This document shows positions 2,883 to 52,545 of a stretch of 64,000 nt of DNA, piece after piece. The position numbers were made by a program, and so were the translations under genes. Location: the NCBI GenBank assembly GCA_900553835.1, contig USFF01000002.1, forward strand, positions 6,756 through 70,755, given 5' to 3'. Source of the DNA: an uncultured Mycoplasmatota bacterium (lineage in GTDB: Bacteria; Bacillota_I; Bacilli_A; RF39; UBA660). The notes under the pieces were generated by a model. That model saw only the letters and a list, made by a program, of their open reading frames with translations, had not been told where the DNA came from and searched no databases. The stretch's first letter is position 1. Each line of letters opens with the position of its first letter.

Positions 2883-3237
2883 TGGTGGAGCTGACGAAGA
2901 GCGACTTCGTGTCCAAAGTATCAACCATACAGACGTGTACAAGTTTAGTTGGTTTATTATTTCAAAAAATATTATGGAGAGCCAACGTTCCTATATTTTT
3001 CTAAGTTTAGTAATAGTTCATTATATAACCTAAACAATTACATAGTATAGTTCACTTTTATAAGTCCAGACATTACCCTCGTGAACAAAGAATAAGCTGA
3101 ACCACTTACTTTTCCTAATTAGGCAAAAGCAGGTGCAAAATGATCAATATCGTTTCCGATTATTTTTTGTTGCGTTTATAGTACGCCTACTACTTGCATC
3201 CATACGTACAACTACTCTGTCGAATCAAAACAGCCCC
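2883..3237 (-). ncRNA. ssrA: tmRNA (SsrA)
   Basis: Minus strand starts GGGGCTGTTTTGATTCGACAG and ends GGACACGAAGTCGCTCTTCGTCAGCTCCACCA, a tRNA-like acceptor/T-arm plus CCA. The internal tag frame ends ...GGA AAC GAT ATT GAT CAT TTT GCA CCT GCT TTT GCC TAA (GNDIDHFAPAFA*). The segment is GC-rich in an AT-rich background. Confidence 0.92.
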
Positions 3238-8963: not shown

Positions 8964-10139
8964 TTAGTTTTCTCCTTTCTTAACAAAGTCTTCATATAAA
9001 GGACTCATACTTCTTAGATTACTTATAATTTCTTTTAAAGTATCAACTACATAGTCAATTTCTTCCATAGTATTATCATGGTTCATAGTAAGTCTTAAAG
9101 AACCATGCGCTATTTCATGTGGAAGACCTATTGCTAAAAGAACATGACTAGGATCCAAACTACCACTAGTGCAAGCACTTCCGCTTGAAGCACATATACC
9201 TTTAGCATCTAATTTTAAAAGCATTCCTTCTCCTTCAATAAATTGAAAACTAAAGTTTGCATTCCCTGGTAATCTCTTAATTCTGGAACCATTAAGTTTT
9301 GAATAAGGTATCTCATTAAGTACTCTGTCAATTAGACGCTCTCTTAAAGATAGAACATATTTGTTATTCTTTTCCATTTCATTAAATTTAAGTTCTGCAG
9401 CCTTAGCAAAACCAATTATACTAGGAGCATTAGTAGTACCAGCGCGTTTTCCTCTTTCTTGCATTCCACCATTAATTAAAGGTAAAATATTAACTCCTTT
9501 TCTAACATATAGAAAACCAATTCCTTTAGGCCCTTCTATTTTGTGTGCACTTGTACTAAGCAAATCTATATTCATTAGATTAACATCAATATTAACATTA
9601 CCATAAGCTTGAACTGCATCTGTATGGAATATTATATTATGTTTCTTACAAATTTCTCCTATTTCTTTTAAAGGCATAATGCTACCTATCTCGTTATTAG
9701 CGGCCATTATACTTACCATAATAGTATCTTCTCTAATAGAGTTTTCTAGTTCATGTAAATCAATAATGCCATCCTTATCTACATTTAAGTAAGTAACTTC
9801 AAAACCAAGTTTTTCTAAATAATGACAACTTTCTAAAATAGCATGATGTTCTATTTTAGTAGTAATAATATGTTTACCTTTATTCATTCTTCCAATCATT
9901 ATTTTTTTAATAGCCCAGTTGTCTGACTCACTTCCACCACTAGTAAAATAAATTTCATCTTTACTAGCATTTATTGTTTTAGCAAGAACTTCTCTTGCTT
10001 CTTCCACCTTTTTGCTGACTTCTCTTGATGAGGTATATATACTACTTGGGTTAGTGTAATATTCTGTAAAATATGGGAGCATTTCATCTAATACTTCTTT
10101 TCTAACCTTAGTAGTTGCAGCATTATCTAAATATATCAT
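8964..10139 (-). CDS. iscS: Cysteine desulfurase (NifS/IscS type)
   Basis: MIYLDNAATT, SAHKIEGPKGIG (PLP Lys), SSGSACTSG (active-site Cys loop). Confidence 0.92.
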   Translation of the reverse strand: MIYLDNAATTKVRKEVLDEMLPYFTEYYTNPSSIYTSSREVSKKVEEAREVLAKTINASKDEIYFTSGGSESDNWAIKKIMIGRMNKGKHIITTKIEHHAILESCHYLEKLGFEVTYLNVDKDGIIDLHELENSIREDTIMVSIMAANNEIGSIMPLKEIGEICKKHNIIFHTDAVQAYGNVNIDVNLMNIDLLSTSAHKIEGPKGIGFLYVRKGVNILPLINGGMQERGKRAGTTNAPSIIGFAKAAELKFNEMEKNNKYVLSLRERLIDRVLNEIPYSKLNGSRIKRLPGNANFSFQFIEGEGMLLKLDAKGICASSGSACTSGSLDPSHVLLAIGLPHEIAHGSLRLTMNHDNTMEEIDYVVDTLKEIISNLRSMSPLYEDFVKKGEN

Positions 10140-16225: not shown

Positions 16226-16436
16226 AGTTTCTCTCTCCTTTCAAAAATAAAAAGGTGGTTACCAAAGGACTCTTAAATAAGAGTGGTACCACCTTAATTT
16301 ATACTCTTTACTATAACGCGTAACCATTAATTTCAAAACGTGTAATTCGTTTTCATATATTTAATTAACTTCCACCAACCGTTAACTCTCTGTGTACTAA
16401 TATATAAAACTACTTCTTCGTTTCTCTTCAATTAAT
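16226..16436 (-). promoter_or_regulatory. T-box leader (Tyr specifier UAC) with terminator/antiterminator
   Basis: Minus strand has AGAGA/AGTA-type stem I elements, specifier GAAUUACAC (TAC at 16344-16342), and T-box AAGGTGGTACCAC (about 16296-16284) overlapping the terminator GGTGGTACC...GGTAACCACC + T run. Promoter is TTGTCA-17-TAGAAT at 16471-16443. Confidence 0.85.
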
Positions 16437-16477
16437 ATATAAATTCTAACACAAAATTTTATATTTGACAAGCCCCT

Positions 16478-17940
16478 TTAGTTATAAATTATTTCGTAAG
16501 GATTTTCTGGACTTCCATCTCCAAAGGATTGAGTATCTCCCTTAATGCTTATAACTGGTCGTACGCCGTACGAAAAGCTGACATTGCTGCGGTCGAGGTA
16601 GCCAGAGTTGCCAGAACCGTGCATAACCCCCACCATAACACCATTTAACATCCGGTTAGGCGAAAGCAACCACCACATACTACTTCCTGTTACACTTTCC
16701 CCAGCACTATTTAGATAATACCATGCATATGGACTTGTTAACTTTGTGTCATACATTCCTCCTGCATATGCTATTTCATCTGCTGTCATGAGGCCAACAG
16801 GGAATTCTAGTTTTGCTTCTGTATTACTTCCTGAAAATGCATCTTTACTATTTGTACAGTCATAGGTTGGTGTTTTATTTGTAACTAGTCTTGTGTATGC
16901 CGCATAGTATAAATCTGAACCAGTCACACTATATGTTCCTTCACCTATTTCTCTATCATTACAATATACTGCTTCTGTACTTATATATTTGGTATAACTC
17001 GATAGATTTGTACTATACCAATTATCTATATATGTTTTTAATGTACTATCATTTTCGTTTGTTCTGTTTGAAGCAAGTGTTCCGCTCGTTCCATACATAT
17101 ATCCTACATACATTGCATCATTATATGAACTATTAAATCCACTTGTACCTATATATCCACTTGTTGTATCAGGACTTGTTCCTGAATACAAAAGCCTTAC
17201 ACTTCCATCATGGTTTGTTCTTATTATTCTCCAGTAAAAGCCTCCGAATTTAACCCAATTGTTTTGTGCATTTCCTGCAAAGTAATACACATTTTTAGCA
17301 GAACTCCCAGCTATGCTCTCAGTTGCTTTGTATAAAGTTCCTGTGTTAGTAGTTGTAAATGTTGCCCTGAATGATTTTCTTGTTTGTATTGTTGGATTGT
17401 CAGATAGCAATTTATTGTATAAAGGAACAGGTTTAGCAGTTCCTTTTTCAATAAACAAAGTACCACTTAACTTTTTACCCATATCATCACTTTGATCTTC
17501 AGTTGTACTATTTTCATACTTAAATTCTGCACTATAGGTATGAGTTGCTCCTTTTGCTATCTCAACACTATATGCAAGTACTGTGTCTGCTACACTAGTG
17601 CTTTTCGGTACATCTGCAAAGTCACTCATATTGTATCCACCGTCTGCAGAAGTTATTTTATATTGTAAATATCCTGTAGTTACAAAAGTATTTACTAAAT
17701 TTTTTATAACTATTCATTCTTTACAGTGAAAGTATTTACTCCACTACTCCATCCTGGTTCTATCTCTGTTCCTGCTATAGTGCCACTTCCATTAGTAAAT
17801 ATTATTTTTAAATCTGTACTTTCTACAGATATATTTTTACCTGTTCCAAATATTTCTGTTGTAAAGTATGCTAGTGTTACAGATAATACTACTACTAACA
17901 AACTTCCTAATATTATAATTAATTCTTTCTTCTTTTTCAT
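16478..17940 (-). pseudogene. Surface-protein paralogue split by a frame break: SipW-type signal peptide + TasA/camelysin-like domain + conserved ~300-aa C-terminal module
   Basis: ORF 17940-17710 (MKKKKELIIILGSLLVVVLSVTLAYFTTE...) ends in TAG. The -1 frame is open from 17713 and continues the same beta-rich domain into ORF 17629-16478. The two frames can only be joined within TGAATAG (17716-17710). Confidence 0.6.
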
Positions 17941-17976: not shown

Positions 17977-20178
17977 TTATAAAGTTAACTGATATGGATT
18001 TGAAGCAGTACCATCTCCTGAAGAAACTTTAACTGTTGACTTAACTGAGATAACTGGTCTAACTCTTCTAACACCATGTACGAAACCATCATCTAGAATT
18101 CCAGGATAGTTTGAACCACCTACAACCATTGAACGAGCAGAGGTTTCATCACCACTCCAGCGGTATGGAGATAAAAGCATCCAATATGTTGATCCCATTA
18201 TACTACTGCCTGCACTGTTAAGATAGAACCAAGCTGATGCGTTATTTGTGCCATATACTCCTCCTGCATAAGCAACTTCATCTGCTGTCATTAAGGCAAT
18301 TGGATACTTTAGTTTTGCACTTGAATTACTTCCTGAAAATGCATCTCCCTGTGTAGTACAATCATATGTTGGAGTTTTATTTGTTGTTAATCTTGTATAA
18401 GGTCCAAAGTAGAAATTTGTACTTCCTGTATTGTAAGTTCCACTTCCTATATTTCTATCATTACAGTATACTGCTGTAGTACTTAAATAACTTGCATAAC
18501 TAGTTAAGTTACTTTCATACCATGTATCTATTGCTTTTTTTATTGTGCTATCATTAGTATTTGTTCTATTTGATGCAAGGCTACCTGTCGTTCCATACAT
18601 ATATCCTACGTACATTGGATTATTTACTGTATCACTAAATGCAATAGATGCTGAATTTATGTAACCCGCTGTTGTATTATGACTTGTCCCTGAATATAGC
18701 ATTCTTACACTTCCATCTGCATTTGTTCTTATTATTCTCCAGTAAAAGTTAGCAAATTTAACCCAGTTATTTGTAGTATTTCCTGCGTAATAGTAAACTG
18801 TTGTGCTTGAAGTATTATGTACATTCTTTTCAGTTGCTTTATAAAGAGTTCCAGTTGTTGTACTTGTAAGTACATCGCTAAATGAACTTCTAGTTGATTT
18901 AGTTGGATTGTCTGCTAAAATTATATTATATAAAGTTGCAACAGGAAGTGTTACTGTACATGTACCATCTTTAGTTATATTACTAACTGTAAGTGTTGAT
19001 CCACTTACACTTCCTGTACCTGAAGTACAAGTTACAGTTGTGCCTTTTACTGTATAACCTGAATTAGCTGTAATAGTATAAGTAGTACTTTTACCATATG
19101 CTACATATCCTCCACCAGTTACACTGCCATTACTAACAGTTACATTAACCTTATGTAATTTAACCCACCCTGCATATATTGTTTTATCACTTTTTTCACT
19201 TAATATACTTGCTGAAGTATATTCGGATATTTTTCTATTTTCTCTTTTACCATAATCTAAATAATGAGTATATAAACTATTTTCATTATGTCCAAATGCA
19301 GTATTTAAATCAGAATAAGTATCTGCATAAAAGTATAGTGGATGTTCTTTATATTCTAAGCTATACCATCCTAAAAATGCATATCCATCTCTTGAAGGTG
19401 TCGGCAATGTACCAAAAGTTTCTTTATATCCCATATTTTTAGTAGAAACAGTTCCTGAAATATCTATGTTTGAAAATGTATATGTTTTATTAGTACCATT
19501 AACATCTAAACGAAGCCAATATGTTCCTGTTACGGTTGGAGTAAATTTAAAATTTTTATTAGAAATCATATGATAATATGTATTATATGCTCCATTTAAC
19601 ATTAAGAATGCTTCAACGGTACTTGTCCCTGGATTAGTACCCCACACACCATTAGTATCACAATTAAAAGTATAAGTTTTATTTGCTTCTAAATATACTC
19701 TTGCATTAATGAAACCATACCCATCATCACTTTTTCCAGTAACTGTAACAACCTTATCTTTTACAGTATAAGTCATATATTCTGAGGTAACATTACTTAC
19801 ATCATCTAGATTATATACTAGATTATTTGTACTATAAGTAAGAACATATACTCCCTTTTTAAAATTCATTGTACAATAATCAGGCATTTTTACATTAGAT
19901 AGACTAATACTACTGTCATCTCTATTAAAAGTAGCAGTAGTGCCATTCTTACAAGTAATACTTTCTACTTCATAAGCTTCGATTAGATCAGCATAACTTA
20001 AATCAGTTTGTTCTCCTTCTAAAGTATAAGCCTCTATTCCATCAGGTTTTTTAATTAGTTCTTTAATAGAAACTCTTTCTTCATTACTTTCTTTATTATT
20101 ATCTTTTAGTATAAAAGATAATGTTAAATTAATAGTTAAAACTAAAATAGTAATAAATATAATTAATTTTCTTTTCAT
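17977..20178 (-). CDS. Large surface protein: N-terminal anchor, Listeria-Bacteroides (InlB B-repeat)-like modules, conserved ~300-aa C-terminal module
   Basis: Start placed at MKRKLIIFITILVL (SD AAAGGAAAAGAGG). LPTPSRDGYAFLGWY repeat motif. The C-terminal YYYAGNTTNNWVKFANFYWRIIRTNADGSVRMLYSG...WMLLSPY...VRPVISVK is paralogous to 16478-17400. Confidence 0.8.
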   Translation of the reverse strand: MKRKLIIFITILVLTINLTLSFILKDNNKESNEERVSIKELIKKPDGIEAYTLEGEQTDLSYADLIEAYEVESITCKNGTTATFNRDDSSISLSNVKMPDYCTMNFKKGVYVLTYSTNNLVYNLDDVSNVTSEYMTYTVKDKVVTVTGKSDDGYGFINARVYLEANKTYTFNCDTNGVWGTNPGTSTVEAFLMLNGAYNTYYHMISNKNFKFTPTVTGTYWLRLDVNGTNKTYTFSNIDISGTVSTKNMGYKETFGTLPTPSRDGYAFLGWYSLEYKEHPLYFYADTYSDLNTAFGHNENSLYTHYLDYGKRENRKISEYTSASILSEKSDKTIYAGWVKLHKVNVTVSNGSVTGGGYVAYGKSTTYTITANSGYTVKGTTVTCTSGTGSVSGSTLTVSNITKDGTCTVTLPVATLYNIILADNPTKSTRSSFSDVLTSTTTGTLYKATEKNVHNTSSTTVYYYAGNTTNNWVKFANFYWRIIRTNADGSVRMLYSGTSHNTTAGYINSASIAFSDTVNNPMYVGYMYGTTGSLASNRTNTNDSTIKKAIDTWYESNLTSYASYLSTTAVYCNDRNIGSGTYNTGSTNFYFGPYTRLTTNKTPTYDCTTQGDAFSGSNSSAKLKYPIALMTADEVAYAGGVYGTNNASAWFYLNSAGSSIMGSTYWMLLSPYRWSGDETSARSMVVGGSNYPGILDDGFVHGVRRVRPVISVKSTVKVSSGDGTASNPYQLTL

Positions 20179-20208
20179 AAAAACCTCTTTTCCTTTAATA
20201 CACACCAA

Positions 20209-20232
20209 AAAGAGATAGGGTTATCCTATCTC
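20209..20232 (-). terminator. Intrinsic terminator inside the 5' leader of the surface-protein gene
   Basis: Minus strand reads GAGATAGG-ATAAC-CCTATCTC followed by TTTTTGG, ending about 30 nt before the ATG at 20178. Confidence 0.65.
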
Positions 20233-20262
20233 ATTAAAGCACATGAAAAACTTAGAGGTTTA

Positions 20263-20328
20263 CTAGTTATTAATAGTAACCCCCCCCCCTAGTACTTTAT
20301 TTTGTACAAGAGTGCTATTGTTTTTCAT
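20263..20328 (-). CDS. 21-codon leader ORF (MKNNSTLVQNKVLGGGVTINN) containing the G10 tract
   Basis: SD AAAGGAGAG lies 6 nt before the ATG (20328), with stop TAG at 20265-20263. Below the ORF-track cutoff. Confidence 0.45.
   Translation of the reverse strand: MKNNSTLVQNKVLGGGVTINN
20280..20289 (-). repeat. G10 homopolymer (C10 on + strand)
   Basis: Read directly: ...gtaac cccccccct ag... This is the only long G/C homopolymer noticed in this AT-rich window. Confidence 0.95.
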
Positions 20329-20477
20329 GTTTATCTCTCCTTTGTTTTTTTGAAACATATGTACCATATTCTGTACATTATATTTCTTGTAGTTTCCTAC
20401 AATAAAATAATACCACAAAAAGTTTAGTTTACAAGCACTAATTTCTTGTACTTTTTGTGATACTGATGTTATTTTAT

Positions 20478-44367: not shown

Positions 44368-45528
44368 TTATATTTTTTTAGTTAGTTTATTTTCTCTTAT
44401 ATTCCATATCATTCCTATATTATTTAGTAGTTCTATTCTTTCAGTACTAATAGAACTTCTTAAACCCCTATAGGATGCTCTTTGAGAGTTTATCCATTGT
44501 CCTAATTTTATAATTTCTCCATTTACTATAGTTTCATATGTAGCAGGTACTTTTAAGTCACCATTTTCCTCATAATACTTTTTAGCTACTTTATAATATT
44601 TCATCCATCTTATATCTTTTAAGTTTTTTACATTGTCATCTTTTATTATGCTAGAAAATATATCCATTAGTTCTTTTCTTTTACCTGTTAATTCGTTATT
44701 CCTATATAAACTTAATTGTCTTTTATACCACTGGTTTAAAGATATTAGTTTCCCATTTACTTCTACTAAATAAGTATTTGGAATAACACTAGTACCTTTA
44801 TCACCATAATATTTTACCATACTTTTAAATGTTATAATCCAGTTCTTTTCACTTTGAAAAAATTTTACATCTTCCCATTGCATACCTATTTCATTTAAAA
44901 GTTTTATTCTTTCATTTGAAAGCTCTCCTAAATTATAACATCTTCTTTGATAAGTTATCCAGTTTCCTAGTGCTACACTATTGCCTTCTATATTTACTTC
45001 ATAAGTATTAGCTATTAGTAAGTCACCATTTTCAGTATAATAGTCTTTTGCTAAGTTATACATATATTCCCATGAAAATCTTGTTCTTAATTTCCATACC
45101 ATACCTATCTCGTCAAGTAGTTCTTTTCTTTTAGCGCTTAGTTTACCACTGTGGTAATTAACCCTTTGAGAAATTATCCAGTTACCTAGATTTATTTCTT
45201 TATTATCTTTTATATAGGAATAAGTCATAGGTACTTTTAAGTTACCTTTTTCTTTGTAATAATTAATTGCTTCTTTATACATTTTAAGCCATGGAATATC
45301 AAGTACTTCTTCATCATAACAATTCCATACCATACCTATCTCATCAAGTAGTTCTTTTCTATATTTTGAAAGTTTACCTAATTTGTTATATCTTCTTTGT
45401 CCTATTATCCATACACCTAAGTTAACATCTCCTACTTTATAATTTTTCTTAATTAATAAGTTACCATTTTCTTCATAATATTTTTTAGCAAGATTATATT
45501 TTTCTAACCATTTTTTATCATTATACAT
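44368..45528 (-). CDS. Protein made of ~5 tandem helicase-associated (HA) domain repeats
   Basis: Repeating about 65-75-aa unit W..(Y/F)..A..YY.E.G.L.vP..Y......LG.WI..QR..Y..GKLS..R..LL.EIGM.W. Confidence 0.8.
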   Translation of the reverse strand: MYNDKKWLEKYNLAKKYYEENGNLLIKKNYKVGDVNLGVWIIGQRRYNKLGKLSKYRKELLDEIGMVWNCYDEEVLDIPWLKMYKEAINYYKEKGNLKVPMTYSYIKDNKEINLGNWIISQRVNYHSGKLSAKRKELLDEIGMVWKLRTRFSWEYMYNLAKDYYTENGDLLIANTYEVNIEGNSVALGNWITYQRRCYNLGELSNERIKLLNEIGMQWEDVKFFQSEKNWIITFKSMVKYYGDKGTSVIPNTYLVEVNGKLISLNQWYKRQLSLYRNNELTGKRKELMDIFSSIIKDDNVKNLKDIRWMKYYKVAKKYYEENGDLKVPATYETIVNGEIIKLGQWINSQRASYRGLRSSISTERIELLNNIGMIWNIRENKLTKKI

Positions 45529-45547
45529 ATTTATTCCCCCTTAGTAA

Positions 45548-47398
45548 TTATTTATTTAATACTTTAGTTTTATTAGAAGTTATTCCTATTTCTTCCAATA
45601 GTTTAGCTTTTTCTATAGAAAGTTTTCCATTTTTATATAAATTTTTTTGAGAACTTAACCACTCTTTTAAGTTGATTATCTTTCCATTAACTTCTATAGT
45701 GTAGTTTTTAGGAAAAAATAAGTCTCCATTTTTATCATAATATTCTTTTATGAATTTATATTTTTCTAACCAATTTGCCATTCTTTCACTATTAAATTCC
45801 CAAATCATTCCTATTTCATTTAGAAGTTTTATTTGTTTTTCACTAATCTTAGCTCTTCTTCCTTTATATGATGATCTTTGAGAATTTATCCAGTCTCCTA
45901 GTTTAATTATCTCTCCATTTACTTCTACTTCATATGTATTAGGAATTCTTAAATTACCATGCATCATAAAGTACTTTTTAGCTAGTTCATAGTTTTTCAT
46001 CCATTTTAGTCTAGATAAGTTTTCTGCTCTTTTGTCATTTACTTTATTAGAAAATGCTTCTATTAACTTTTTTCTTTCACTACTTAATTTATTATTTCTA
46101 CAAAGATATAATTGTTTTGTATACCATTTATTTAAGTTTATACTTTTGTTTTCTATTAAAACCTCGTAGTCAGATGAAATATTAGTGGTTTCATTTTCTT
46201 CATAGTATTTTACTACATTTTTAAATAGAATAAGCCAGTTTTTATCATCTGTAGTTTGTTTTACATCTTCCCATTTCATTCCTATTTCATTTAGAAGTTC
46301 TATTCTTTCACTTAAAAGAGTTTTCTTTTTATAACTTCTTCTTTGGTTTACTATCCAGTTTCCTAGTGATATATCTGTTCCTTCTACATTTACTATCAAA
46401 TTTCTAGGTACTAGTAAATCACCATGTTCTTTATAGTAATCTTTTGCTAATTTATAGACATATTCCCATGTAAACCAGTTTTTCTTTTCCCATTTCATAC
46501 CTATTTTATCAAGAAGCTTTATTTTATCAGCTGATATCTTATTATTACCATAATTCTGTCTCTGTGAGATTACCCACTGTCCTAGATTGATTTTTATTCC
46601 ATCTTTTTCATAAACATAAGTATAAGGTACTTTTAAATCACCATGTTCCTTATAGTAGTTAACTGCTACATTATATATTTCAAACCAATTTTTATCATTT
46701 TCTGTTTTTATCTTATTGTTTTCATTTAACATTATAAGTTCATTAACCAGTTTTTCTTTTTCAGCTGATAATTCTTTTAATTTTAACATACTTTTTTGAT
46801 TTTTATACCATGATTTTAAAAGTATTTCTTCATGACTAACTGTAACTAAATAGTCGTTAGGTATTATTAAGTTACCATGTTCTTTATAAAACTCTAAAAC
46901 CTCTTTATATAAAGAAAACCATTTTTTATCTCTGTTATCTTTTCTATTTCGTTTTCTTTGTTCTGCTTTCCACTGTACTCCTATGTTTTCAAGTAACTTT
47001 ATTTTTTCTATAGAAAGTTTTCCTTCATTATAAAATTTTATTTGATTTCTAAGCCATGCTCCTAATAGTACATTTTTATCATTTATATTTATTTTGTATG
47101 TACTAGAGAAAAGTTTATTGTTTTCTAAATAGTAATCTTTTGCTAAATTATACATATATTCCCAAGAATAAGTATTATTTATTTTCCAAACCATTCCTAT
47201 TTCATTTAAAAGGTCTATTCTTTCTTTACTTAATGTGCCTTTTAAGTACCCCTGTCTTTGAGCCATTACCCATGTACCTAGATTAATTATTATTCCATCC
47301 TTTAAAGAACTATATCTAAATGGTACTTTTAAATTACCATGTTCTAAATAGTATTCTTTTGCTAAGTTATATTTCTTTAGCCATTTTCCATCTTTCAT
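45548..47398 (-). CDS. Protein made of ~8 tandem HA domain repeats
   Basis: Same repeat unit. Blocks are colinear with parts of both neighbouring paralogues. Confidence 0.8.
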   Translation of the reverse strand: MKDGKWLKKYNLAKEYYLEHGNLKVPFRYSSLKDGIIINLGTWVMAQRQGYLKGTLSKERIDLLNEIGMVWKINNTYSWEYMYNLAKDYYLENNKLFSSTYKININDKNVLLGAWLRNQIKFYNEGKLSIEKIKLLENIGVQWKAEQRKRNRKDNRDKKWFSLYKEVLEFYKEHGNLIIPNDYLVTVSHEEILLKSWYKNQKSMLKLKELSAEKEKLVNELIMLNENNKIKTENDKNWFEIYNVAVNYYKEHGDLKVPYTYVYEKDGIKINLGQWVISQRQNYGNNKISADKIKLLDKIGMKWEKKNWFTWEYVYKLAKDYYKEHGDLLVPRNLIVNVEGTDISLGNWIVNQRRSYKKKTLLSERIELLNEIGMKWEDVKQTTDDKNWLILFKNVVKYYEENETTNISSDYEVLIENKSINLNKWYTKQLYLCRNNKLSSERKKLIEAFSNKVNDKRAENLSRLKWMKNYELAKKYFMMHGNLRIPNTYEVEVNGEIIKLGDWINSQRSSYKGRRAKISEKQIKLLNEIGMIWEFNSERMANWLEKYKFIKEYYDKNGDLFFPKNYTIEVNGKIINLKEWLSSQKNLYKNGKLSIEKAKLLEEIGITSNKTKVLNK

Positions 47399-47413
47399 AG
47401 GTTGCCTCCTTAA

Positions 47414-49015
47414 TTATTTTTTTAATGTTTTACTATTCCAAACCATACCTATTTCATTAAGTAAATTTATTTTTTCCTCATTTAGTTTTCCAAGTTCATA
47501 TAGCATCCTTTGTCTTCTTAACCAATCTCTTAAACTAAATAATTTATCATTAACTACATAACTTGAAGGAATATCTAAATTACCATATTCTTCATAGTAT
47601 TTTTTAACAAGTTCATAATTATCTAACCATTCTGAATATCTTATACTTCCAAATTCCCAAATCATTCCTAACTCATTAAGAAGTTTTATCATTTCTTCAT
47701 TTAGTTTTCCTTTTTTATAAATAGTTCTCTGCCTATCTATCCACTTTCCTAGTTTTTTAACTTTACCATTTACTATAACTTCATATTCAGAAGGTATTTT
47801 TATGTTTCCAGAATGATTATAATATTCTTTTGCTAAGTTATAAAAAAACATCCATTTTTTATCATTTTCTGTTTTTATTTTATTATCCTCGTCTAATGAA
47901 AATAGACCATTTATTAGTTTTTCTTTTTCTGGCGATAATTCTTTTTGTTTTAACATACTTTTTTGTTTTTTATACCATGACTTTAAAAGTATTTCTTCAT
48001 GATCAACTGTAACTAAATAGTTATTAGGTATTACTAAATTACCATGTTCTTTATAATAATTTATAACTGCTTTATATAAAAGTAACCATTTTTTATTTTT
48101 CTCGTTTTCTCTAATTTGTTTTCTTTCTTCTCTAGTCCACTTTAAACCAATTGTTTCAAGTAGTTTTATTTTTTCTTCAGTTAGTTTTCCCTTATTATAA
48201 AAATTTTTTTGTTTATTAAGCCATACTCCTAAAAGAATATTATTTCCATCTATATTTACTTTATAATTGGTAGTAAAAAGTTTATTGTTTTTTAAATAGT
48301 AATCTTTTGCTAGATTAAACATATATTCCCAAGAAAATTTTGCTTTCCATACCATGCCTATTTTATCAAGTAATTCTTTTCTTTTAGCACTTAGTTTACC
48401 ATTATTATAGATAATTCTTTGAGAAACTATCCAGTTACCTAAGTTTATTACTTCATCATCTTTTATGTAAGAATAAACCATAGGTACTCTTAAGTTGCCT
48501 TTTTTTTTGTAATAATTAACTGCTTCCTCATACATATATTCCCAAGAATAAGCATTATTTATTTTCCAAATCATTCCTATTTCATTAAGTAGTTCTTTTC
48601 TTTTAGCACTTAGTTTACCATTCTTATAGATAACTCTTTGAGTAGCTATCCAGCTACCTAGTTTTATTTTCTCACCATCCTTTATGTAAGAATAAACTGT
48701 AGGTACTTTCAAATTACCTTTTTCTTTGTAATAATTAGTTGCTTCTTTATACATATATTCCCAAGAGTCATTTCTTATTTTCCAAATCATTCCTATTTCA
48801 TTAAGTAGCTCTTTTCTATATTTGGGAAGTTTACCTAAACCATTATTTTCTCTTTGCCACCTTATCCATGTACCAAGATTAATTTTTGTTCCATGCTTCT
48901 CACATGAATAAGTAACAGGTATTTTTAAGTTACCATTTTCTTCATAATATTTTTTTGCTAAACTATATTTTTCGAACCAGTCTTTATCATATTCTGACCA
49001 TTTTTTGCCTTGCAT
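47414..49015 (-). CDS. Protein made of ~7 tandem HA domain repeats
   Basis: Same repeat unit. Own promoter TTGCAT-17-TGTTACAAT upstream (about 49066-49038). Confidence 0.8.
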   Translation of the reverse strand: MQGKKWSEYDKDWFEKYSLAKKYYEENGNLKIPVTYSCEKHGTKINLGTWIRWQRENNGLGKLPKYRKELLNEIGMIWKIRNDSWEYMYKEATNYYKEKGNLKVPTVYSYIKDGEKIKLGSWIATQRVIYKNGKLSAKRKELLNEIGMIWKINNAYSWEYMYEEAVNYYKKKGNLRVPMVYSYIKDDEVINLGNWIVSQRIIYNNGKLSAKRKELLDKIGMVWKAKFSWEYMFNLAKDYYLKNNKLFTTNYKVNIDGNNILLGVWLNKQKNFYNKGKLTEEKIKLLETIGLKWTREERKQIRENEKNKKWLLLYKAVINYYKEHGNLVIPNNYLVTVDHEEILLKSWYKKQKSMLKQKELSPEKEKLINGLFSLDEDNKIKTENDKKWMFFYNLAKEYYNHSGNIKIPSEYEVIVNGKVKKLGKWIDRQRTIYKKGKLNEEMIKLLNELGMIWEFGSIRYSEWLDNYELVKKYYEEYGNLDIPSSYVVNDKLFSLRDWLRRQRMLYELGKLNEEKINLLNEIGMVWNSKTLKK

Positions 49016-50348: not shown

Positions 50349-50393
50349 TGTAAACACCTCCAAATATAAATAGAAAAGTGAATGCAGTTGCAT

Positions 50394-50530
50394 CCACTTT
50401 AAAACATTAAAAAGAAAACTTTTTAAGCTTTTTACCTACTTACCTATTTATAAGTCAGGTGAGTGTGGATACACTTCTTTCTCTCTTCACATGTTTAATT
50501 ATATAATATATTTTATTAAAAATCAAGAAA
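50394..50530 (-). promoter_or_regulatory. Probable L20-responsive leader of the infC operon
   Basis: Called from position and a relatively GC-rich structured stretch (GTGTATCCACACTCACCTGAC...). Not verified against a model. Confidence 0.35.
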
Positions 50531-50566: not shown

Positions 50567-52315
50567 CTAATCTCTTATCTTTAGATGTGTTTCTCTTAGT
50601 TGCTGTTCTGTTACTTCTGTAGGTCCTCCCATAAGAAGATCTTGTCCACTTACATTAGGTGGGAATATTTGTACTTCTCTTAGGTTTTCTTCTCCAGTTA
50701 GTAACATTATAATTCTATCTATTCCAGGAGCCATACCAGCATGTGGTGGAGCACCATATTGGAAAGCTGTATATAAACTTTTGAATTTTGTTTTTACTAC
50801 GTTCTCATCATAACCAGCTATTTCAAAAGCTTTTTTCATTATTTCTATGCTATGATTTCTAACTGCACCACTTGCCATTTCACAACCATTACATACAAAG
50901 TCATATTGATATGCTACAATATCACCTATTTCTTTATTATTTAAAGCATCTATTCCACCTTGTGGCATACTAAATGGATTGTGTGCAAAATCCCATTTAT
51001 TATCTTCTTCATTCCATTCATAGAATGGGAAGTCATTAACTATGCAGAATTCATATCTATCTTTATCAATTAGATCTAATTCTTCTCCAAGTTTAGTTCT
51101 TAATAGACCTGCATATTTTTCACATTTGTTTTTATCACTTATTATAAATAAGCAATCATTTACATTAAGTTCTAAAGACTTAATTAAGTTATTTATTTCT
51201 TCTTCACTTAAATATTTTACTATACTTCCTTTTAGTGACAAGTCTTCCATAACTCTTATATATGAAAGTCCTGCTAAGTCAATACTTTTTGCATATTCTT
51301 CCATATTTTTAAACCAACTATTTGATTTATCTAAGTTAGTTACCTTAATACCTCTTATAACGCTTCCTTTAAATGGTTCAAATGTAGTATTTTTTAATAT
51401 ATCAGTAAGTTCAGATATAATAAGTGGATTTCTTAAGTCAGGTTTATCTGTTCCATACATAAGCATAGAGTCTTTATATGCTATTCTTCTGAATGGAGCT
51501 GGACTTACATATTTATCACTAAAAGTAGTAAATATATCATAGAATATTTTTTCTCCTACTTTATATATATCTTCTTCTGTAACAAAGCTCATTTCTAAGT
51601 CTAGTTGATAAAACTCTAATGTTCTATCTGCCCTGCAGTCTTCATCTCTAAAACAAGGTGCTATTTGGAAATATCTATTAAAACCACTTACCATTAATAA
51701 TTGCTTATATATTTGAGGCGCTTGTGGAAGTGCATAGAATTTACCTTTATATCTTCTACTAGGTATTATAAAGTCTCTAGCACCTTCTGGACTACTTGTA
51801 GTTATAATTGGTGTAGATATTTCTGTAAAGTCCATACTTTTCATTAGACTTCTAATATGATCAATTACTTTAAATCTAAATACCATATTATCATGTACTT
51901 TTTTATTTCTTAAGTCTAAGTATCTATATTTAAGCCTAGTTTCTTCACTAGCTTCTTCTGTACTTCTACTTATTTCAAATGGTAATACATTTAAACATTC
52001 TCCAAGTACTTCTACACTTTTAGCAAGAATTTCTATTTTACCTGTTTTCATATTTTTATTAATCATGTCTTCAGTTCTTAATCTAACTTCTCCAGTAATA
52101 GAAACTGTACTTTCTCTAGTTATTCCCTCAAATAAACTAGCATCTTCTGTTATTATTTGTACTATACCTGTTTCATCTCTTAATGTAACAAATGTTAATC
52201 CCCCTAGTTTTCTTATACTATTTATCCATCCTGCAACTTTTACTTCTTTACCTGCATATTCTTCACTCACTAGTCCAGAATAGACATTTCTGTAAATATT
52301 ATTTACTTTTTCCAT
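50567..52315 (-). CDS. aspS: Aspartate--tRNA ligase
   Basis: Class IIb: N-terminal OB fold, FRDEDCRADR (motif 2 region), GAPPHAGMAPGIDR (motif 3), about 582 aa. Preceded by a T-box with GAC specifier. Confidence 0.92.
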   Translation of the reverse strand: MEKVNNIYRNVYSGLVSEEYAGKEVKVAGWINSIRKLGGLTFVTLRDETGIVQIITEDASLFEGITRESTVSITGEVRLRTEDMINKNMKTGKIEILAKSVEVLGECLNVLPFEISRSTEEASEETRLKYRYLDLRNKKVHDNMVFRFKVIDHIRSLMKSMDFTEISTPIITTSSPEGARDFIIPSRRYKGKFYALPQAPQIYKQLLMVSGFNRYFQIAPCFRDEDCRADRTLEFYQLDLEMSFVTEEDIYKVGEKIFYDIFTTFSDKYVSPAPFRRIAYKDSMLMYGTDKPDLRNPLIISELTDILKNTTFEPFKGSVIRGIKVTNLDKSNSWFKNMEEYAKSIDLAGLSYIRVMEDLSLKGSIVKYLSEEEINNLIKSLELNVNDCLFIISDKNKCEKYAGLLRTKLGEELDLIDKDRYEFCIVNDFPFYEWNEEDNKWDFAHNPFSMPQGGIDALNNKEIGDIVAYQYDFVCNGCEMASGAVRNHSIEIMKKAFEIAGYDENVVKTKFKSLYTAFQYGAPPHAGMAPGIDRIIMLLTGEENLREVQIFPPNVSGQDLLMGGPTEVTEQQLRETHLKIRD

Positions 52316-52545
52316 GTTTTTTCCTCCTTTAATATAAAAAATCTATAATCTAAGGACTTATTATATAAGCGGTGCCACCTTAGTTTATAGATTTTATCTA
52401 TACTCTTTAATTCCTTAACGCAGAAATACGATTATTTTTATATTTTGTGTCTTCATAAATTATTTATTATTAGTTTACACCAAACACTAACTCTCTTTAA
52501 ATAAATTAATTTATTACTCTTCAAAACAAATAATATATTTAAATT
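52316..52545 (-). promoter_or_regulatory. T-box leader (Asp specifier GAC)
   Basis: Minus strand has AGAGAG/GTTAGTG stem I elements, specifier ATGAAGACAC (GAC at 52451-52449), T-box AAGGTGGCACCGC (52380-52368) and a terminator ending in T6 before the SD AAAGGAGG. Confidence 0.8.

What the first reader, a model, noticed from the sequence alone, without database searches (positions are those of the whole stretch)
20209..20434. G10 tract inside a leader ORF upstream of an intrinsic terminator: candidate phase-variable, translation-dependent attenuator of a surface-protein gene
On the minus strand, between the dnaI stop and the surface-protein ATG (20178), the order is as follows. First an SD AAAGGAGAG and a 6-nt spacer. 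Then ATG AAA AAC AAT AGC ACT CTT GTA CAA AAT AAA GTA CTA GGG GGG GGG GTT ACT ATT AAT AAC TAG (20328 to 20263). Then 30 nt, then the hairpin GAGATAGG-ATAAC-CCTATCTC plus TTTTT (20232 to 20209), then the SD and ATG of the 733-aa surface protein. A 10-nt G run is extremely unlikely by chance in such AT-rich DNA and is a classic slipped-strand substrate. Reading the three tract lengths gives different outcomes. G10 (as sequenced) stops 30 nt before the terminator stem. G11 stops even earlier (GGT TAC TAT TAA). G9 opens TTA CTA TTA ATA ACT AGT AAA CCT CTA AGT TTT TCA TGT GCT TTA ATG AGA TAG, whose stop codon lies inside the 5' arm of the terminator. In the G9 state a ribosome would therefore occupy the stem and could suppress termination. 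One tract length in three would be ON. I know of homopolymer phase variation in promoters and within coding genes, but not of one acting through a leader peptide and terminator like this.
Basis: partly seen in the sequence, partly recalled or inferred. Interest (0 to 1): 0.85.

Follow-up and report, generated by a model that had tools for sequence, protein, structure and literature searches.

The report
Poly-G leader-peptide switch before surface gene
A run of ten Gs inside a tiny upstream reading frame, followed by a transcription stop signal, probably acts as a heritable on/off switch for a secreted-protein gene. It is one copy of a cassette repeated across the genomes of uncultured human-gut Bacilli, and it works like a switch already shown in Streptococcus gallolyticus.

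Summary
On the minus strand there is a promoter-like site, an SD plus ATG (20328) and a 21-codon sORF holding the only G/C run of 6 or more in 64 kb (G10, 20289..20280). A hairpin plus T5 follows (20232..20207), then the SD and ATG (20178) of a 733-aa signal-peptide protein.

It is not a one-off. I found 26 distinct copies of the same cassette in related gut metagenome assemblies, at least five of them in one MAG. Each sits 27-30 nt upstream of a paralogous secreted-protein gene.

In all 26 copies, one reading-frame class runs from the tract into the terminator and the other two stop 22-43 nt upstream. Tracts are G8 to G12, never shorter. The terminator covaries. A further conserved helix pairs the sORF start codon with the block just 5' of the terminator.

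At this locus all eight assemblies read G10, the predicted OFF state.

The mechanism is not new in kind. S. gallolyticus pil1/pil3 uses GCAGA repeats in a leader peptide plus a terminator (PMC3894217). This is a homopolymer, multi-copy variant.

The window's dnaI-cassette-gene junction differs from other assemblies and may be recombinant or chimeric.

The parts
20414..20459 (-). Imperfect nested inverted repeat (CACAAAAAG-TACAAG...CTTGTA...CTTTTTGTG) followed by U-rich sequence. It may be the terminator of the dnaB-like/dnaI-like operon, or an operator overlapping the cassette promoter.
   Evidence: Folds at -17.6 kcal/mol, z = -3.9. The same TACCACAAAAAG...CTTTTTGTGGTA arrangement is seen in copies L011, L012, L014 and L009. 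Function is inferred.
20407..20434 (-). Promoter-like site: TTGTAA, 16 nt, TG-extended TATTAT.
   Evidence: A TGnTAnnAT -10 element is conserved at the same place in the promoter-bearing copies. Some copies lack it and sit directly after an upstream gene's stop codon.
20387..20402 (-). 5' stem-loop UUGUAG-GAAA-CUACAA at the predicted start of the leader transcript.
   Evidence: MFE fold. An analogous 5' hairpin of different sequence is present in L031. A stabilising role is inferred.
20335..20343 (-). Shine-Dalgarno sequence of the leader sORF (AAAGGAGAG), 6 nt before the ATG.
   Evidence: A GGAG core is present in every copy.
20263..20328 (-). Leader sORF as sequenced (G10): 21 codons plus TAG, immediately followed by TAA. 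This is the short, predicted OFF frame.
20280..20289 (-). G10 homopolymer (codons 14-17 of the sORF), the proposed slipped-strand switch.
   Evidence: It is the only G/C run of 6 or more in the window. Tracts are G8 to G12 in related copies and never shorter than 8. All 34 G/C runs of 7 or more in the 443 kb of held sequence lie in these cassettes.
20226..20279 (-). Post-tract segment. It is open in only one frame (read with G9 or G12: LLLITSKPLSFSCALMR*), ending at TAG 20228..20226 inside the terminator 5' arm. The other two frames are closed by TAA TAA or TAG TAA within 20 nt of the tract.
   Evidence: The same layout is present in all 26 distinct copies, despite spacer indels of -2, -3 and -4 nt and diverged sequence in L031, L037 and L038.
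20320..20330 (-). 5' strand of helix P1 (ACAUGAAAAAC), which includes the sORF start codon.
20241..20251 (-). 3' strand of helix P1 (GUUUUUCAUGU), the conserved block just 5' of the terminator. It is translated only in the long frame.
   Evidence: The 11-bp core is paired in 88-100% of cells per position (96.5% overall) across 26 copies. L031 has a compensatory C:G to U:A change, and the other changes are G.U wobbles. The enclosed 100-nt domain folds at -30.4 kcal/mol, z = -5.9.
20207..20232 (-). Intrinsic-terminator-like hairpin (8 bp, loop of 5) plus U5.
   Evidence: Four stem pairs show compensatory double changes across copies, and 0 of 500 shuffles reach the observed covariation.
20184..20196 (-). 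Shine-Dalgarno region of the downstream gene. Only 28 nt separate the T-run from the ATG, leaving no room for a promoter.
   Evidence: The spacing is the same in all copies.
17977..20178 (-). 733-aa protein with an N-terminal signal or anchor sequence. It belongs to a large uncharacterised family of secreted proteins and is the gene proposed to be switched.
   Evidence: There are 3551 homologues at E <= 1e-10, some carrying PF19789. The only match is a weak Flg_new hit in Pfam, and there is nothing in NCBIfam.
16478..17940 (-). A 76-aa ORF (17940..17710) and a 383-aa ORF (17629..16478) downstream. The 383-aa ORF is a paralogue of the C-terminal half of the 733-aa protein. Both are possibly co-transcribed with the switched gene.
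   Evidence: Repeat families D7, D11 and D12 are 74-81% identical. No terminator-like site lies between these ORFs. The same trio is linked in L007 to L010.

Best explanation
This is one copy of a dispersed regulatory cassette that acts as a phase-variable transcription attenuator.

**Proposed sequence of events.**
1. Transcription starts at the cassette promoter, or enters from the upstream operon in the copies that have no promoter.
2. Ribosomes translate a short leader ORF that contains a poly-G tract.
3. The tract length is changed heritably by slipped-strand mispairing and sets the reading frame.
4. In two frame classes (here G10, G11 and G8), tandem stop codons release the ribosome 33-40 nt before the terminator. 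The hairpin then forms and most transcripts end at about 20207.
5. In the third class (here G9 or G12), the ribosome reads on through the conserved block into the 5' arm of the hairpin. This occludes the hairpin, so RNA polymerase reads through into the secreted-protein gene, whose start lies 28 nt beyond the T-run.

As sequenced (G10), this copy is in the predicted OFF state. Several such cassettes per genome, each in front of a different paralogue, would give combinatorial variation of surface proteins.

**Shown here:** the anatomy, its conservation, terminator covariation, and tract-length differences among copies.

**Inferred:** translation of the sORF, termination at the hairpin, ribosome occlusion, and switching within populations.

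**Additional inference (low confidence):** helix P1 hides the sORF start codon once the block is transcribed. Only ribosomes loaded co-transcriptionally would then count, and the ON/OFF contrast would be sharpened.
For: **Anatomy.** It is exact at the stated coordinates.

**A conserved cassette.** There are 26 distinct copies, in the window, in L001 to L031, and in L037 and L038. They come from human-gut metagenome assemblies whose record names point to several study cohorts (OBRE15-1, Hadza, Nepal), and at least 5 lie in one 'uncultured Bacilli' MAG.

**Three-frame design.** In every copy exactly one frame class reaches the hairpin, with its stop at -4 to +15 of the stem. The other two classes stop 22-43 nt upstream.
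- This holds through spacer lengths of 47, 45, 44 and 43 nt.
- It also holds in diverged copies. In L031, the protein next to the cassette is 46% identical to the window's 733-aa protein over two-thirds of its length.
- The ON length differs between copies: G10 in L037, and G8 or G11 in L038.

**Translation signals.** SD and start codon are conserved, with ATG replaced by GTG in L037.

**Tract behaviour.**
- Lengths are G8 x2, G9 x4, G10 x20, plus G11 (L021) and G12 (L013) in truncated copies.
- No cassette has a tract shorter than 8.
- The near-identical cassettes L020 and L026 differ only by G9 versus G10 up to the T-run.
- 5 of 26 copies are in the long frame as sequenced.
- These genomes otherwise avoid homopolymers. 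All 34 G/C runs of 7 or more in 443 kb are in cassettes, and there are only 6 A/T runs of 9 or more.

**Terminator.** Four pairs show compensatory changes. The covariation score is 0.113 against 0.060 in shuffles, with 0 of 500 shuffles reaching it, and the slid controls are all lower.

**Gene context.** The downstream gene always starts 27-30 nt after the T-run and always encodes a signal-peptide protein of one paralogous family.

**Experimental precedent.** In S. gallolyticus pil1/pil3, leader peptides ending at least 28-39 nt upstream give low expression. Those ending at or in the hairpin give high expression. This was proven with ATG*, 3-STOP and delta-term mutants (PMC3894217). The distances here fall into the same two classes.
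Against: - There is no direct evidence for translation of the sORF, for termination at the hairpin, or for read-through.
- At this locus the tract is G10 in all eight assemblies that cover it (dnaI-linked copy L001 to L003; 733-linked copy L007 to L010 plus the window). Consensus sequences cannot show minority variants.
- G10 is the modal length whichever frame it corresponds to (OFF in most copies, ON in L037). The length distribution alone therefore does not prove selection on state.
- The hairpin is modest (8 bp, -11.7 kcal/mol, U5 followed by GG) and may be leaky.
- In Bacillus subtilis, RNA polymerase commonly outruns the ribosome (my knowledge, not tested here). That would weaken ribosome-dependent antitermination, although the streptococcal case shows the mechanism works in a Firmicute.
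- The role of P1 is unexplained by the simple model.
- Some close homologues of the downstream protein have ordinary promoters and no cassette (L032, L034, L039).
Confidence: 0.7

Rival explanations
1. The architecture is the same, but the frame choice is made on RNA rather than DNA. Transcriptional slippage on the G run, or ribosomal frameshifting on GGG GGG GGG G (perhaps sensitive to supply of tRNA-Gly for this rare codon), would send a fraction of ribosomes into the long frame. The result would be graded or conditional read-through rather than heritable ON/OFF phase variation.
For: - A G10 run is in principle a slippery site for both polymerase and ribosome (general knowledge).
- G10 is the modal length in 20 of 26 copies, regardless of which frame it encodes.
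- The tract is invariant at this locus in eight assemblies.
- The three-frame design serves this model equally well.
Against: - DNA-level length differences do exist (G8 to G12). They include near-isogenic cassettes differing by one G (L020 versus L026) and 5 of 26 copies fixed in the long frame.
- The experimentally proven precedent works through DNA repeat-number change.
- The two mechanisms are not exclusive.
Confidence: 0.12
2. The G tract acts without translation of the sORF. It could alter leader RNA folding or stability, or serve as the target of a trans-acting C/U-rich small RNA (as in H. pylori RepG-tlpB). It could also simply be part of a repeated 3'-UTR/terminator module of the upstream operons.
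For: - The leader is strongly structured: z = -6.1 for 233 nt, with the G tract inside the P1-closed domain.
- Much of the cassette is conserved at the nucleotide level, including third codon positions.
- In promoter-less copies the hairpin also ends the upstream operon.
Against: - This does not explain the conserved SD and start codon at fixed distance, including the ATG to GTG change.
- It does not explain the tandem stops closing exactly two frames.
- It does not explain a third frame kept open through five spacer configurations and in diverged copies.
- Predicted pairing of the G tract with CCUCU is not conserved.
Confidence: 0.08
3. The sORF encodes a functional small protein (the 32-34-aa long form) whose production is phase-variable. 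The hairpin would merely be its terminator.
For: The long-frame C-terminus ...(S/G)FSCAL(K/M)R recurs in most copies.
Against: - That motif is encoded by the P1 3' strand and its flank, which are conserved as RNA.
- Where spacer indels shift the frame, the peptide changes completely while the architecture is kept (L001 ...NLVFHVL, L016 ...QVFRVFKEIG, L038 ...VIKWIE).
- Codons 3 to 7 vary freely.
- The downstream genes have no promoter of their own.
Confidence: 0.04
4. This is a sequencing or assembly artefact, or a chance run.
For: Homopolymers are error-prone, several contigs break in or next to the cassette (L002, L003, L024), and the window's junction is not reproduced elsewhere.
Against: The tract with the same flanks recurs in more than 25 assemblies made with different assemblers and from different cohorts. 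The chance expectation is about 7e-4 per window.
Confidence: 0.01

Closest known systems
Streptococcus gallolyticus pil1 and pil3 pilus switches (Danne et al. 2014, PLoS Pathog, PMC3894217)
   Same: The order of parts is the same: promoter, then a leader peptide ORF with RBS and ATG that contains a slippage-prone repeat, then a stem-loop terminator with a T-run, then surface-structure genes. The repeat number sets the frame. A short peptide ending about 28-39 nt upstream gives low expression, and a long peptide ending at or in the hairpin gives high expression. More than one locus per genome uses it (pil1 and pil3).
   Different: - The repeat is a G homopolymer (8-12 nt), not 13-22 copies of GCAGA.
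- Only one of three frame classes is long. In pil1, both out-of-frame classes are long.
- It is a near-identical portable cassette present at 5 or more loci per genome, some copies lacking a promoter and sitting behind housekeeping operons.
- The downstream genes are an uncharacterised secreted-protein family, not sortase pili.
- It has an extra conserved helix (P1) pairing the leader start codon with the pre-terminator block.
- The host is an uncultured gut Bacilli lineage.
- Nothing has been tested experimentally here.
E. coli pyrBI-type attenuation (ribosome translating a leader ORF through the attenuator hairpin; my knowledge, not checked in the library)
   Same: The mechanical principle matches the long frame: the leader ORF overlaps the terminator, and a closely following ribosome prevents hairpin formation. 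No antiterminator hairpin is needed.
   Different: In pyrBI, coupling is set physiologically by UTP-dependent polymerase pausing. Here it would be set genetically by reading frame.
Classical homopolymeric contingency loci (poly-G/C tracts of Campylobacter, Neisseria and Haemophilus, in coding regions or promoters; my knowledge)
   Same: A G/C tract of 8-12 nt in an AT-rich genome, linked to surface or secreted proteins, in a multigene family, with length polymorphism.
   Different: The tract is neither in the structural gene nor in promoter spacing. Its frame information is transduced through a leader ORF and a terminator.
Clostridioides difficile cwpV switch (invertible element between promoter and gene that creates a leader terminator in one orientation; my knowledge)
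   Same: Phase variation of a surface protein exerted through premature termination in the 5' leader of a Firmicute gene.
   Different: cwpV uses site-specific DNA inversion by a recombinase and needs no translation. Here, all 26 copies have the same internal orientation, so there is no sign of inversion.
Helicobacter pylori tlpB leader G-repeat targeted by the sRNA RepG (my knowledge)
   Same: A variable homopolymeric G repeat in a 5' leader modulates expression of the downstream gene.
   Different: That repeat acts as an sRNA binding site in an untranslated leader. Here, the tract lies in a conserved translated sORF with a three-frame stop design.

Membership tests
Phase-variable leader-peptide transcription attenuator (S. 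gallolyticus pil1/pil3 type) | Leader ORF with a recognisable RBS and start codon between the promoter and the structural gene | tested here: met
   SD AAAGGAGAG and ATG 20328, with a promoter-like site at 20434..20407. SD and start are conserved in 26 copies.
Phase-variable leader-peptide transcription attenuator (S. gallolyticus pil1/pil3 type) | Slippage-prone simple sequence repeat inside the leader ORF | tested here: met
   G10 in codons 14-17. The repeat type differs: a homopolymer rather than GCAGA.
Phase-variable leader-peptide transcription attenuator (S. gallolyticus pil1/pil3 type) | Stem-loop terminator with a T-run between the leader ORF and the structural gene, with no promoter after it | tested here: met
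   Hairpin plus U5 at 20232..20207, with 28 nt to the ATG. Covariation at 4 stem pairs. Terminator activity itself was not tested.
Phase-variable leader-peptide transcription attenuator (S. gallolyticus pil1/pil3 type) | Repeat number decides between a short peptide ending at least ~28 nt upstream and a long peptide ending at or in the hairpin | tested here: met
   Stops at -33 and -40 nt versus +4 in the window. The ranges are -22 to -43 versus -4 to +15 over 26 copies. Thresholds are from the paper. Only one of three frames is long here, whereas both out-of-frame classes are long in pil1.
Phase-variable leader-peptide transcription attenuator (S. gallolyticus pil1/pil3 type) | Repeat number varies between isolates and within a population | tested here: inconclusive
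   G8 to G12 among copies and assemblies, including near-identical cassettes with G9 versus G10. This locus is G10 in 8 of 8 assemblies. Within-population heterogeneity needs reads.
Phase-variable leader-peptide transcription attenuator (S. gallolyticus pil1/pil3 type) | Expression depends on translation of the leader and on the terminator (ATG*, 3-STOP and delta-term mutants) | not testable with these tools
   Requires genetics or reporters (describes the tests).
Homopolymeric contingency locus (slipped-strand mispairing) | G/C tract of about 8 or more, far above chance and maintained | tested here: met
   Only such run in 64 kb. All 34 runs of 7 or more in 443 kb are in cassettes, and no cassette has fewer than 8.
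Homopolymeric contingency locus (slipped-strand mispairing) | High-frequency reversible length change | not testable with these tools
   Only consensus assemblies are available.
trp-type ribosome-mediated attenuation | Alternative antiterminator hairpin competing with the terminator | tested here: not met
   The MFE and consensus folds show P1 and the terminator coexisting, and no conserved alternative pairing of the terminator 5' arm.
pyrBI-type attenuation | Leader ORF extends into the attenuator hairpin, so that a ribosome occludes it | tested here: met
   True only of the long frame. The nucleotide-sensitive pausing that defines pyrBI control cannot be tested.
Invertible-DNA leader switch (cwpV type) | Segment flanked by inverted repeats and found in both orientations | tested here: not met
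   An 11-bp inverted repeat (P1) flanks the tract, but all 26 copies have the same orientation. G.U wobble substitutions point to an RNA helix.
Known RNA families (Rfam 15) | Match to a curated leader or riboswitch model | tested here: not met
   No hit at E <= 1 in 17.5-23 kb, and none in the whole window at this site.

The most novel reading that the evidence does not exclude
The cassette would be more than a switch. It would be a portable, recombinogenic expression module.

Near-identical 150-250-nt copies sit behind housekeeping operons (dnaI, polC, frr, ybbR, ytxH, L32). They would serve as homologous-recombination sites that exchange secreted-protein genes between expression contexts. 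This would explain three observations:
- The same 733-aa gene is found behind three different upstream genes.
- Cassettes with identical 5' halves carry different 3' halves and genes.
- Remnants of deleted genes occur.

Gene shuffling would thus be layered on poly-G ON/OFF switching.

In addition, helix P1 (start codon paired to the pre-terminator block) would be a new attenuator component. It would restrict leader translation to the co-transcriptional window, or pause the polymerase.
Probability: 0.2. Interest if true: 0.75.

Novelty: new variant of a known kind. Interest (0 to 1): 0.55.

Why it matters
Phase variation through a leader peptide and a terminator has so far been documented, as far as I could find in the held literature, only for the pilus loci of one streptococcal species. 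This finding has several consequences.

- **Generality.** The same logic has been built independently from a homopolymer. It has been multiplied into a genome-wide cassette controlling a large family of secreted proteins in uncultured Bacilli of the human gut; record names of the source assemblies (Hadza, Nepal, OBRE15-1) suggest non-industrialised cohorts. That would make it a general solution rather than a curiosity.
- **A sequence signature.** The layout is SD-ATG, about 13 codons, G8-12, tandem stops in two frames, an open third frame, then a terminator. Similar switches could be mined with this signature.
- **Annotation.** Poly-G tracts outside genes and promoters can still be contingency loci.
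- **Assembly.** The cassette is a recurrent assembly breakpoint in these MAGs. This matters for anyone interpreting synteny or strain variation there.

Tried and rejected
- **Known RNA family.** Rfam gave no match.
- **Frameshift fusion.** A frameshift fusing the sORF to the surface gene is rejected. All three frames are closed at the hairpin (TAA, TAG or the loop TAA).
- **trp-like antiterminator.** No conserved alternative pairing was found.
- **G tract pairing with the CCUCU spacer.** This is predicted in the window but not conserved.
- **Invertible segment flanked by the P1 inverted repeat.** No copy is in the opposite orientation.
- **Bacteriocin-like double-glycine leader or small toxin for the sORF.** The register does not fit, and the peptide is not conserved when indels shift the frame.
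- **Other cassette copies in the window.** None were found.
- **Function of the downstream protein.** Pfam and NCBIfam give nothing beyond a weak Flg_new repeat. Structure prediction was not attempted because it would not bear on the switch.
- **Tract polymorphism at this exact locus.** All eight assemblies covering it read G10.
- **A second homopolymer-based example in the literature.** Five full-text searches found none. The library lacks most subscription journals.
- **Close homologues.** Those checked in L032, L034 and L039 have ordinary promoters and no cassette.
Full report
**1. Observation**

- SD AAAGGAGAG (20343..20335).
- ATG 20328.
- A 21-codon sORF, MKNNSTLVQNKVLGGGVTINN, ending at TAG 20265..20263 and followed at once by TAA.
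- G10 at 20289..20280.
- Hairpin GAGATAGG-ATAAC-CCTATCTC (20232..20212) plus T5 (20211..20207).
- A second SD, then ATG 20178 of a 733-aa ORF with an N-terminal hydrophobic signal or anchor.

Additional points:
- The tract is the only G or C run of 6 or more in the 64-kb window. There are 13 runs of five, none of six to nine, and one of ten. From the composition I estimate about 7e-4 such runs by chance.
- The hairpin is the only terminator-like site in 17.5-21.5 kb. It folds at -11.7 kcal/mol, z = -4.0.
- A TG-extended promoter-like site lies at 20434..20407.
- Rfam has nothing at this site.

**2. It is a repeated cassette, not a private leader**

Exact-protein look-ups for the upstream DnaI-like protein and for the 733-aa protein returned contigs in which the same leader occurs in other contexts:
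- dnaI, cassette, a gene remnant, a 614-aa gene, obg (L001).
- polC, about 600 nt, cassette, 733-aa gene (L007, L008).
- frr, about 1.1 kb, cassette, 733-aa gene (L009).
- Several contigs that break in or next to the cassette (L002, L003, L010).

One scan of species-representative genomes found four copies in a single MAG labelled 'uncultured Bacilli bacterium', and a fifth variant was found later. One metagenome scan added 14 loci.

Homologues of the 733-aa protein number 3551 at E <= 1e-10, some with PF19789. They led to more copies:
- Three copies within 22 kb of a 233-kb contig whose record name begins 'Hadza_MoBio' (L030).
- Diverged copies next to proteins only 46-57% identical to the 733-aa protein over the aligned part (L031, L037), and next to an 88%-identical 1087-aa paralogue (L038).

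In total there are 26 distinct sequences. Other homologues have ordinary promoters and no cassette (L032, L034, L039).

**3. Conserved three-frame design**

In all 26 copies, exactly one frame class runs from the tract to the terminator, with its stop codon at -4 to +15 relative to the first stem base. The other two classes are closed within about 20 nt of the tract, usually by tandem stops (TAA TAA or TAG TAA), 22-43 nt before the stem.

This layout survives several kinds of change:
- Spacer variants of 47, 44 (in-frame), 45 and 43 nt.
- A start-codon change to GTG (L037).
- Strong sequence divergence (L031, L038).

The tract length that gives the long frame differs between copies. It is G9 or G12 in most, G10 in L037 and L027b, and G8 or G11 in L038 and L030c. 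What is conserved is therefore the logic, not a particular length.

Two further observations fit this:
- The block between tract and hairpin is open in all three frames, and all three frames are closed at the hairpin. The discrimination is made entirely by the stops just after the tract.
- The long peptide is not conserved when indels shift the frame (L001, L016, L038). This argues that the act of translation matters rather than the product.

**4. Tract length**

- Across copies the tract is G8 (2), G9 (4) and G10 (20), plus G11 (L021, apparently a T-to-G substitution) and G12 (L013) in truncated copies.
- No cassette has a tract shorter than 8.
- Only six A/T runs of 9 or more occur in this roughly 74% A+T DNA. 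These genomes otherwise avoid homopolymers.
- The near-identical cassettes L020 and L026 differ only by G9 versus G10 up to the T-run.
- Five of 26 copies, six of 27 counting truncated L013, are in the long frame as sequenced.

Against this, the window's own two cassette lineages read G10 in all eight assemblies that cover them. Those are the dnaI-linked and the 733-linked copies. Consensus sequence cannot reveal minority variants.

**5. RNA structure**

*Terminator.* The stem shows compensatory double changes at four pairs. Examples are G:C to U:A, A:U to U:A, and GG/CC to AU/AU or AC/GU.

The sORF start region ACAUGAAAAAC (20330..20320) is perfectly complementary to GUUUUUCAUGU (20251..20241), the block just 5' of the terminator.
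- P1 appears in the MFE fold of the leader (z = -6.1), in the RNAalifold consensus and in an independent fold of the diverged L031 copy.
- Its 11-bp core is paired in 88-100% of cells per position (96.5% overall) over 26 copies.
- L031 carries a compensatory C:G to U:A change and a 3-4-bp extension. The other changes are G.U wobbles, including the GUG start of L037.

*Whole structure.* Covariation is 0.113 against 0.060 in shuffles, with 0 of 500 shuffles reaching it. All slid controls are lower.

*Interpretation.* The sequences are related, so these numbers are supportive rather than proof.
- P1 and the terminator can coexist, and no conserved antiterminator was found. The device is therefore of the direct-occlusion type, not the trp type.
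- P1 would hide the sORF AUG once the block is transcribed, and only long-frame ribosomes run through its 3' strand.
- I infer, with low confidence, that it limits leader translation to co-transcriptionally loaded ribosomes, or contributes a pause.

**6. Context**

The genes after the cassettes always start 27-30 nt beyond the T-run and encode signal-peptide proteins of one family. The family has two N-terminal types, about 700-770 aa and about 500-560 aa, sharing a C-terminal region of roughly 300 aa. There is no Pfam or NCBIfam assignment beyond a weak Flg_new repeat.

Cassettes sit behind housekeeping genes: dnaI, polC, frr, cdaA-ybbR, ytxH and rpmF. Some lack a promoter and follow an upstream stop codon directly, so the hairpin doubles as that operon's terminator.

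In the window, a 76-aa ORF and a 383-aa ORF follow with no terminator-like site between them. The 383-aa ORF is a paralogue of the C-terminal half of the 733-aa protein. They may be co-switched.

**7. Mechanism**

Poly-G length sets the leader frame. Short frames release the ribosome well upstream, so the terminator forms. The long frame carries the ribosome into the 5' arm, blocks the hairpin and allows read-through. As sequenced (G10), the window copy is OFF.

- Shown: anatomy, conservation, covariation, and tract polymorphism among copies.
- Inferred: translation, termination, occlusion, and heritable switching.
- Confidence: 0.7.

**8. Comparison with what is known**

A full-text search found a direct experimental precedent: Danne et al. 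2014 (PMC3894217). In S. gallolyticus pil1 and pil3, GCAGA repeats inside a leader peptide ORF change its frame.
- Peptides ending at least 28-39 nt before a stem-loop terminator give low expression.
- Peptides ending at or in the hairpin give high expression.
- ATG*, 3-STOP and delta-term mutants and qRT-PCR proved translation-mediated antitermination.

The distances here fall into the same two classes. The differences are:
- A homopolymer instead of a pentanucleotide repeat.
- One long frame of three instead of two.
- A portable multi-copy cassette.
- Helix P1.
- A different gene family and host.

Four further searches found no homopolymer-based example, but the library is incomplete.

pyrBI attenuation, the cwpV inversion switch, classical poly-G contingency loci and the H. 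pylori RepG-tlpB G-repeat are more distant relatives. These comparisons rest on my own knowledge.

**9. Rivals**

- RNA-level slippage or frameshifting on the G run instead of, or alongside, DNA-level switching (0.12).
- A translation-independent RNA role of the tract (0.08).
- A functional small protein (0.04).
- An artefact (0.01).

**10. Caveat on the window**

The window's cassette has the dnaI-linked 5' half (identical to L001) and the 733-linked 3' half (identical to L007). They are joined within a stretch of about 55 nt, including the G10, that is identical in both. A MAG carrying both proteins at 100% identity has the two halves on separate contigs that break at the cassette (L002, L010).

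The join is therefore either a real recombinant or a chimeric assembly. Either way, the cassette in front of the 733-aa gene has the same architecture and G10.

**11. Verdict**

The finding is real, conserved and very probably functional. It is a new variant of a known but rare mechanism, not a new kind. Interest is 0.55.

Noticed in passing
window 20320-20330 and 20241-20251 (minus strand): An 11-bp helix (P1) pairs the sORF start codon region with the conserved block just 5' of the terminator, enclosing the G tract. It is conserved in 26 copies, with one compensatory change and several G.U changes. Its role is unknown; it may time initiation or act as a pause hairpin.
   Followed up: yes
window about 20190-20330; L001 5030-5216; L007 2828-3014; L009; L002/L010: The window joins dnaI to the 733-aa gene through the cassette. 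Other assemblies place the same gene behind polC or frr, and place dnaI in front of a remnant plus a 614-aa gene and obg. Contigs often end in the cassette. The cause is either real recombination at cassettes or chimeric assembly across a shared stretch of about 55 nt.
   Followed up: partly
L001 5170-5235; L028 (same sequence): After the cassette terminator and SD, the secreted-protein gene is missing. Only its last codons remain (...PDSPYEIVYN*), followed by an ordinary TTGACA/TACAAT promoter and a 614-aa gene. This is a deletion scar showing that cassette-linked genes are lost as well as swapped.
   Followed up: partly
window 16478-17629 versus 18245-18798: The 383-aa ORF downstream of the 733-aa gene is 74-81% identical at DNA level to that gene's C-terminal half. 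It could be a second expressed paralogue or a donor for recombination. A 76-aa ORF (17710-17940) lies between them.
   Followed up: no
window 20414-20459 (minus strand): A nested inverted repeat overlaps the cassette promoter (-17.6 kcal/mol, z = -3.9) and is followed by U-rich sequence. It is conserved in other promoter-bearing copies. It may be the terminator of the upstream operon or an operator site.
   Followed up: partly
L007 2346-2438 (reverse strand); L009 2250-2700; L030 about 9500-9800: Modules of about 450 nt travel with some cassettes. They have their own promoter, hairpins and, in L007, a 30-aa hydrophobic ORF (MNKRKYNIKVLRYVSIILLLVIILITVIKK) on the opposite strand, reminiscent of a type I toxin. 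No Rfam match.
   Followed up: partly
window 2883-3237 (minus strand): Rfam finds a full-length tmRNA (120.9 bits, E = 1e-46) that ARAGORN did not report.
   Followed up: no
window 16262-16437, 52349-52533 and 50364-50485 (minus strand): T-box leaders lie upstream of tyrS (77.9 bits, below the gathering score of 93, E = 4e-15) and of the 582-aa ORF at 50567-52315 (not identified; 96.1 bits). An L20-leader-like element is also present (47.3 bits, below gathering).
   Followed up: no
window 44368-49015 (minus-strand ORFs of 386, 616 and 533 aa): Three adjacent genes are built from many diverged repeats of about 216-231 nt (direct-repeat families D1 to D6). They form a repeat-protein cluster unrelated to the cassette.
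   Followed up: no
all held loci (443 kb): Homopolymers are strongly depleted. Only six A/T runs of 9 or more occur in about 74% A+T DNA, and there are no G/C runs of 7 or more outside the cassettes. This suggests genome-wide selection against slippage-prone runs, except where they are used.
   Followed up: partly
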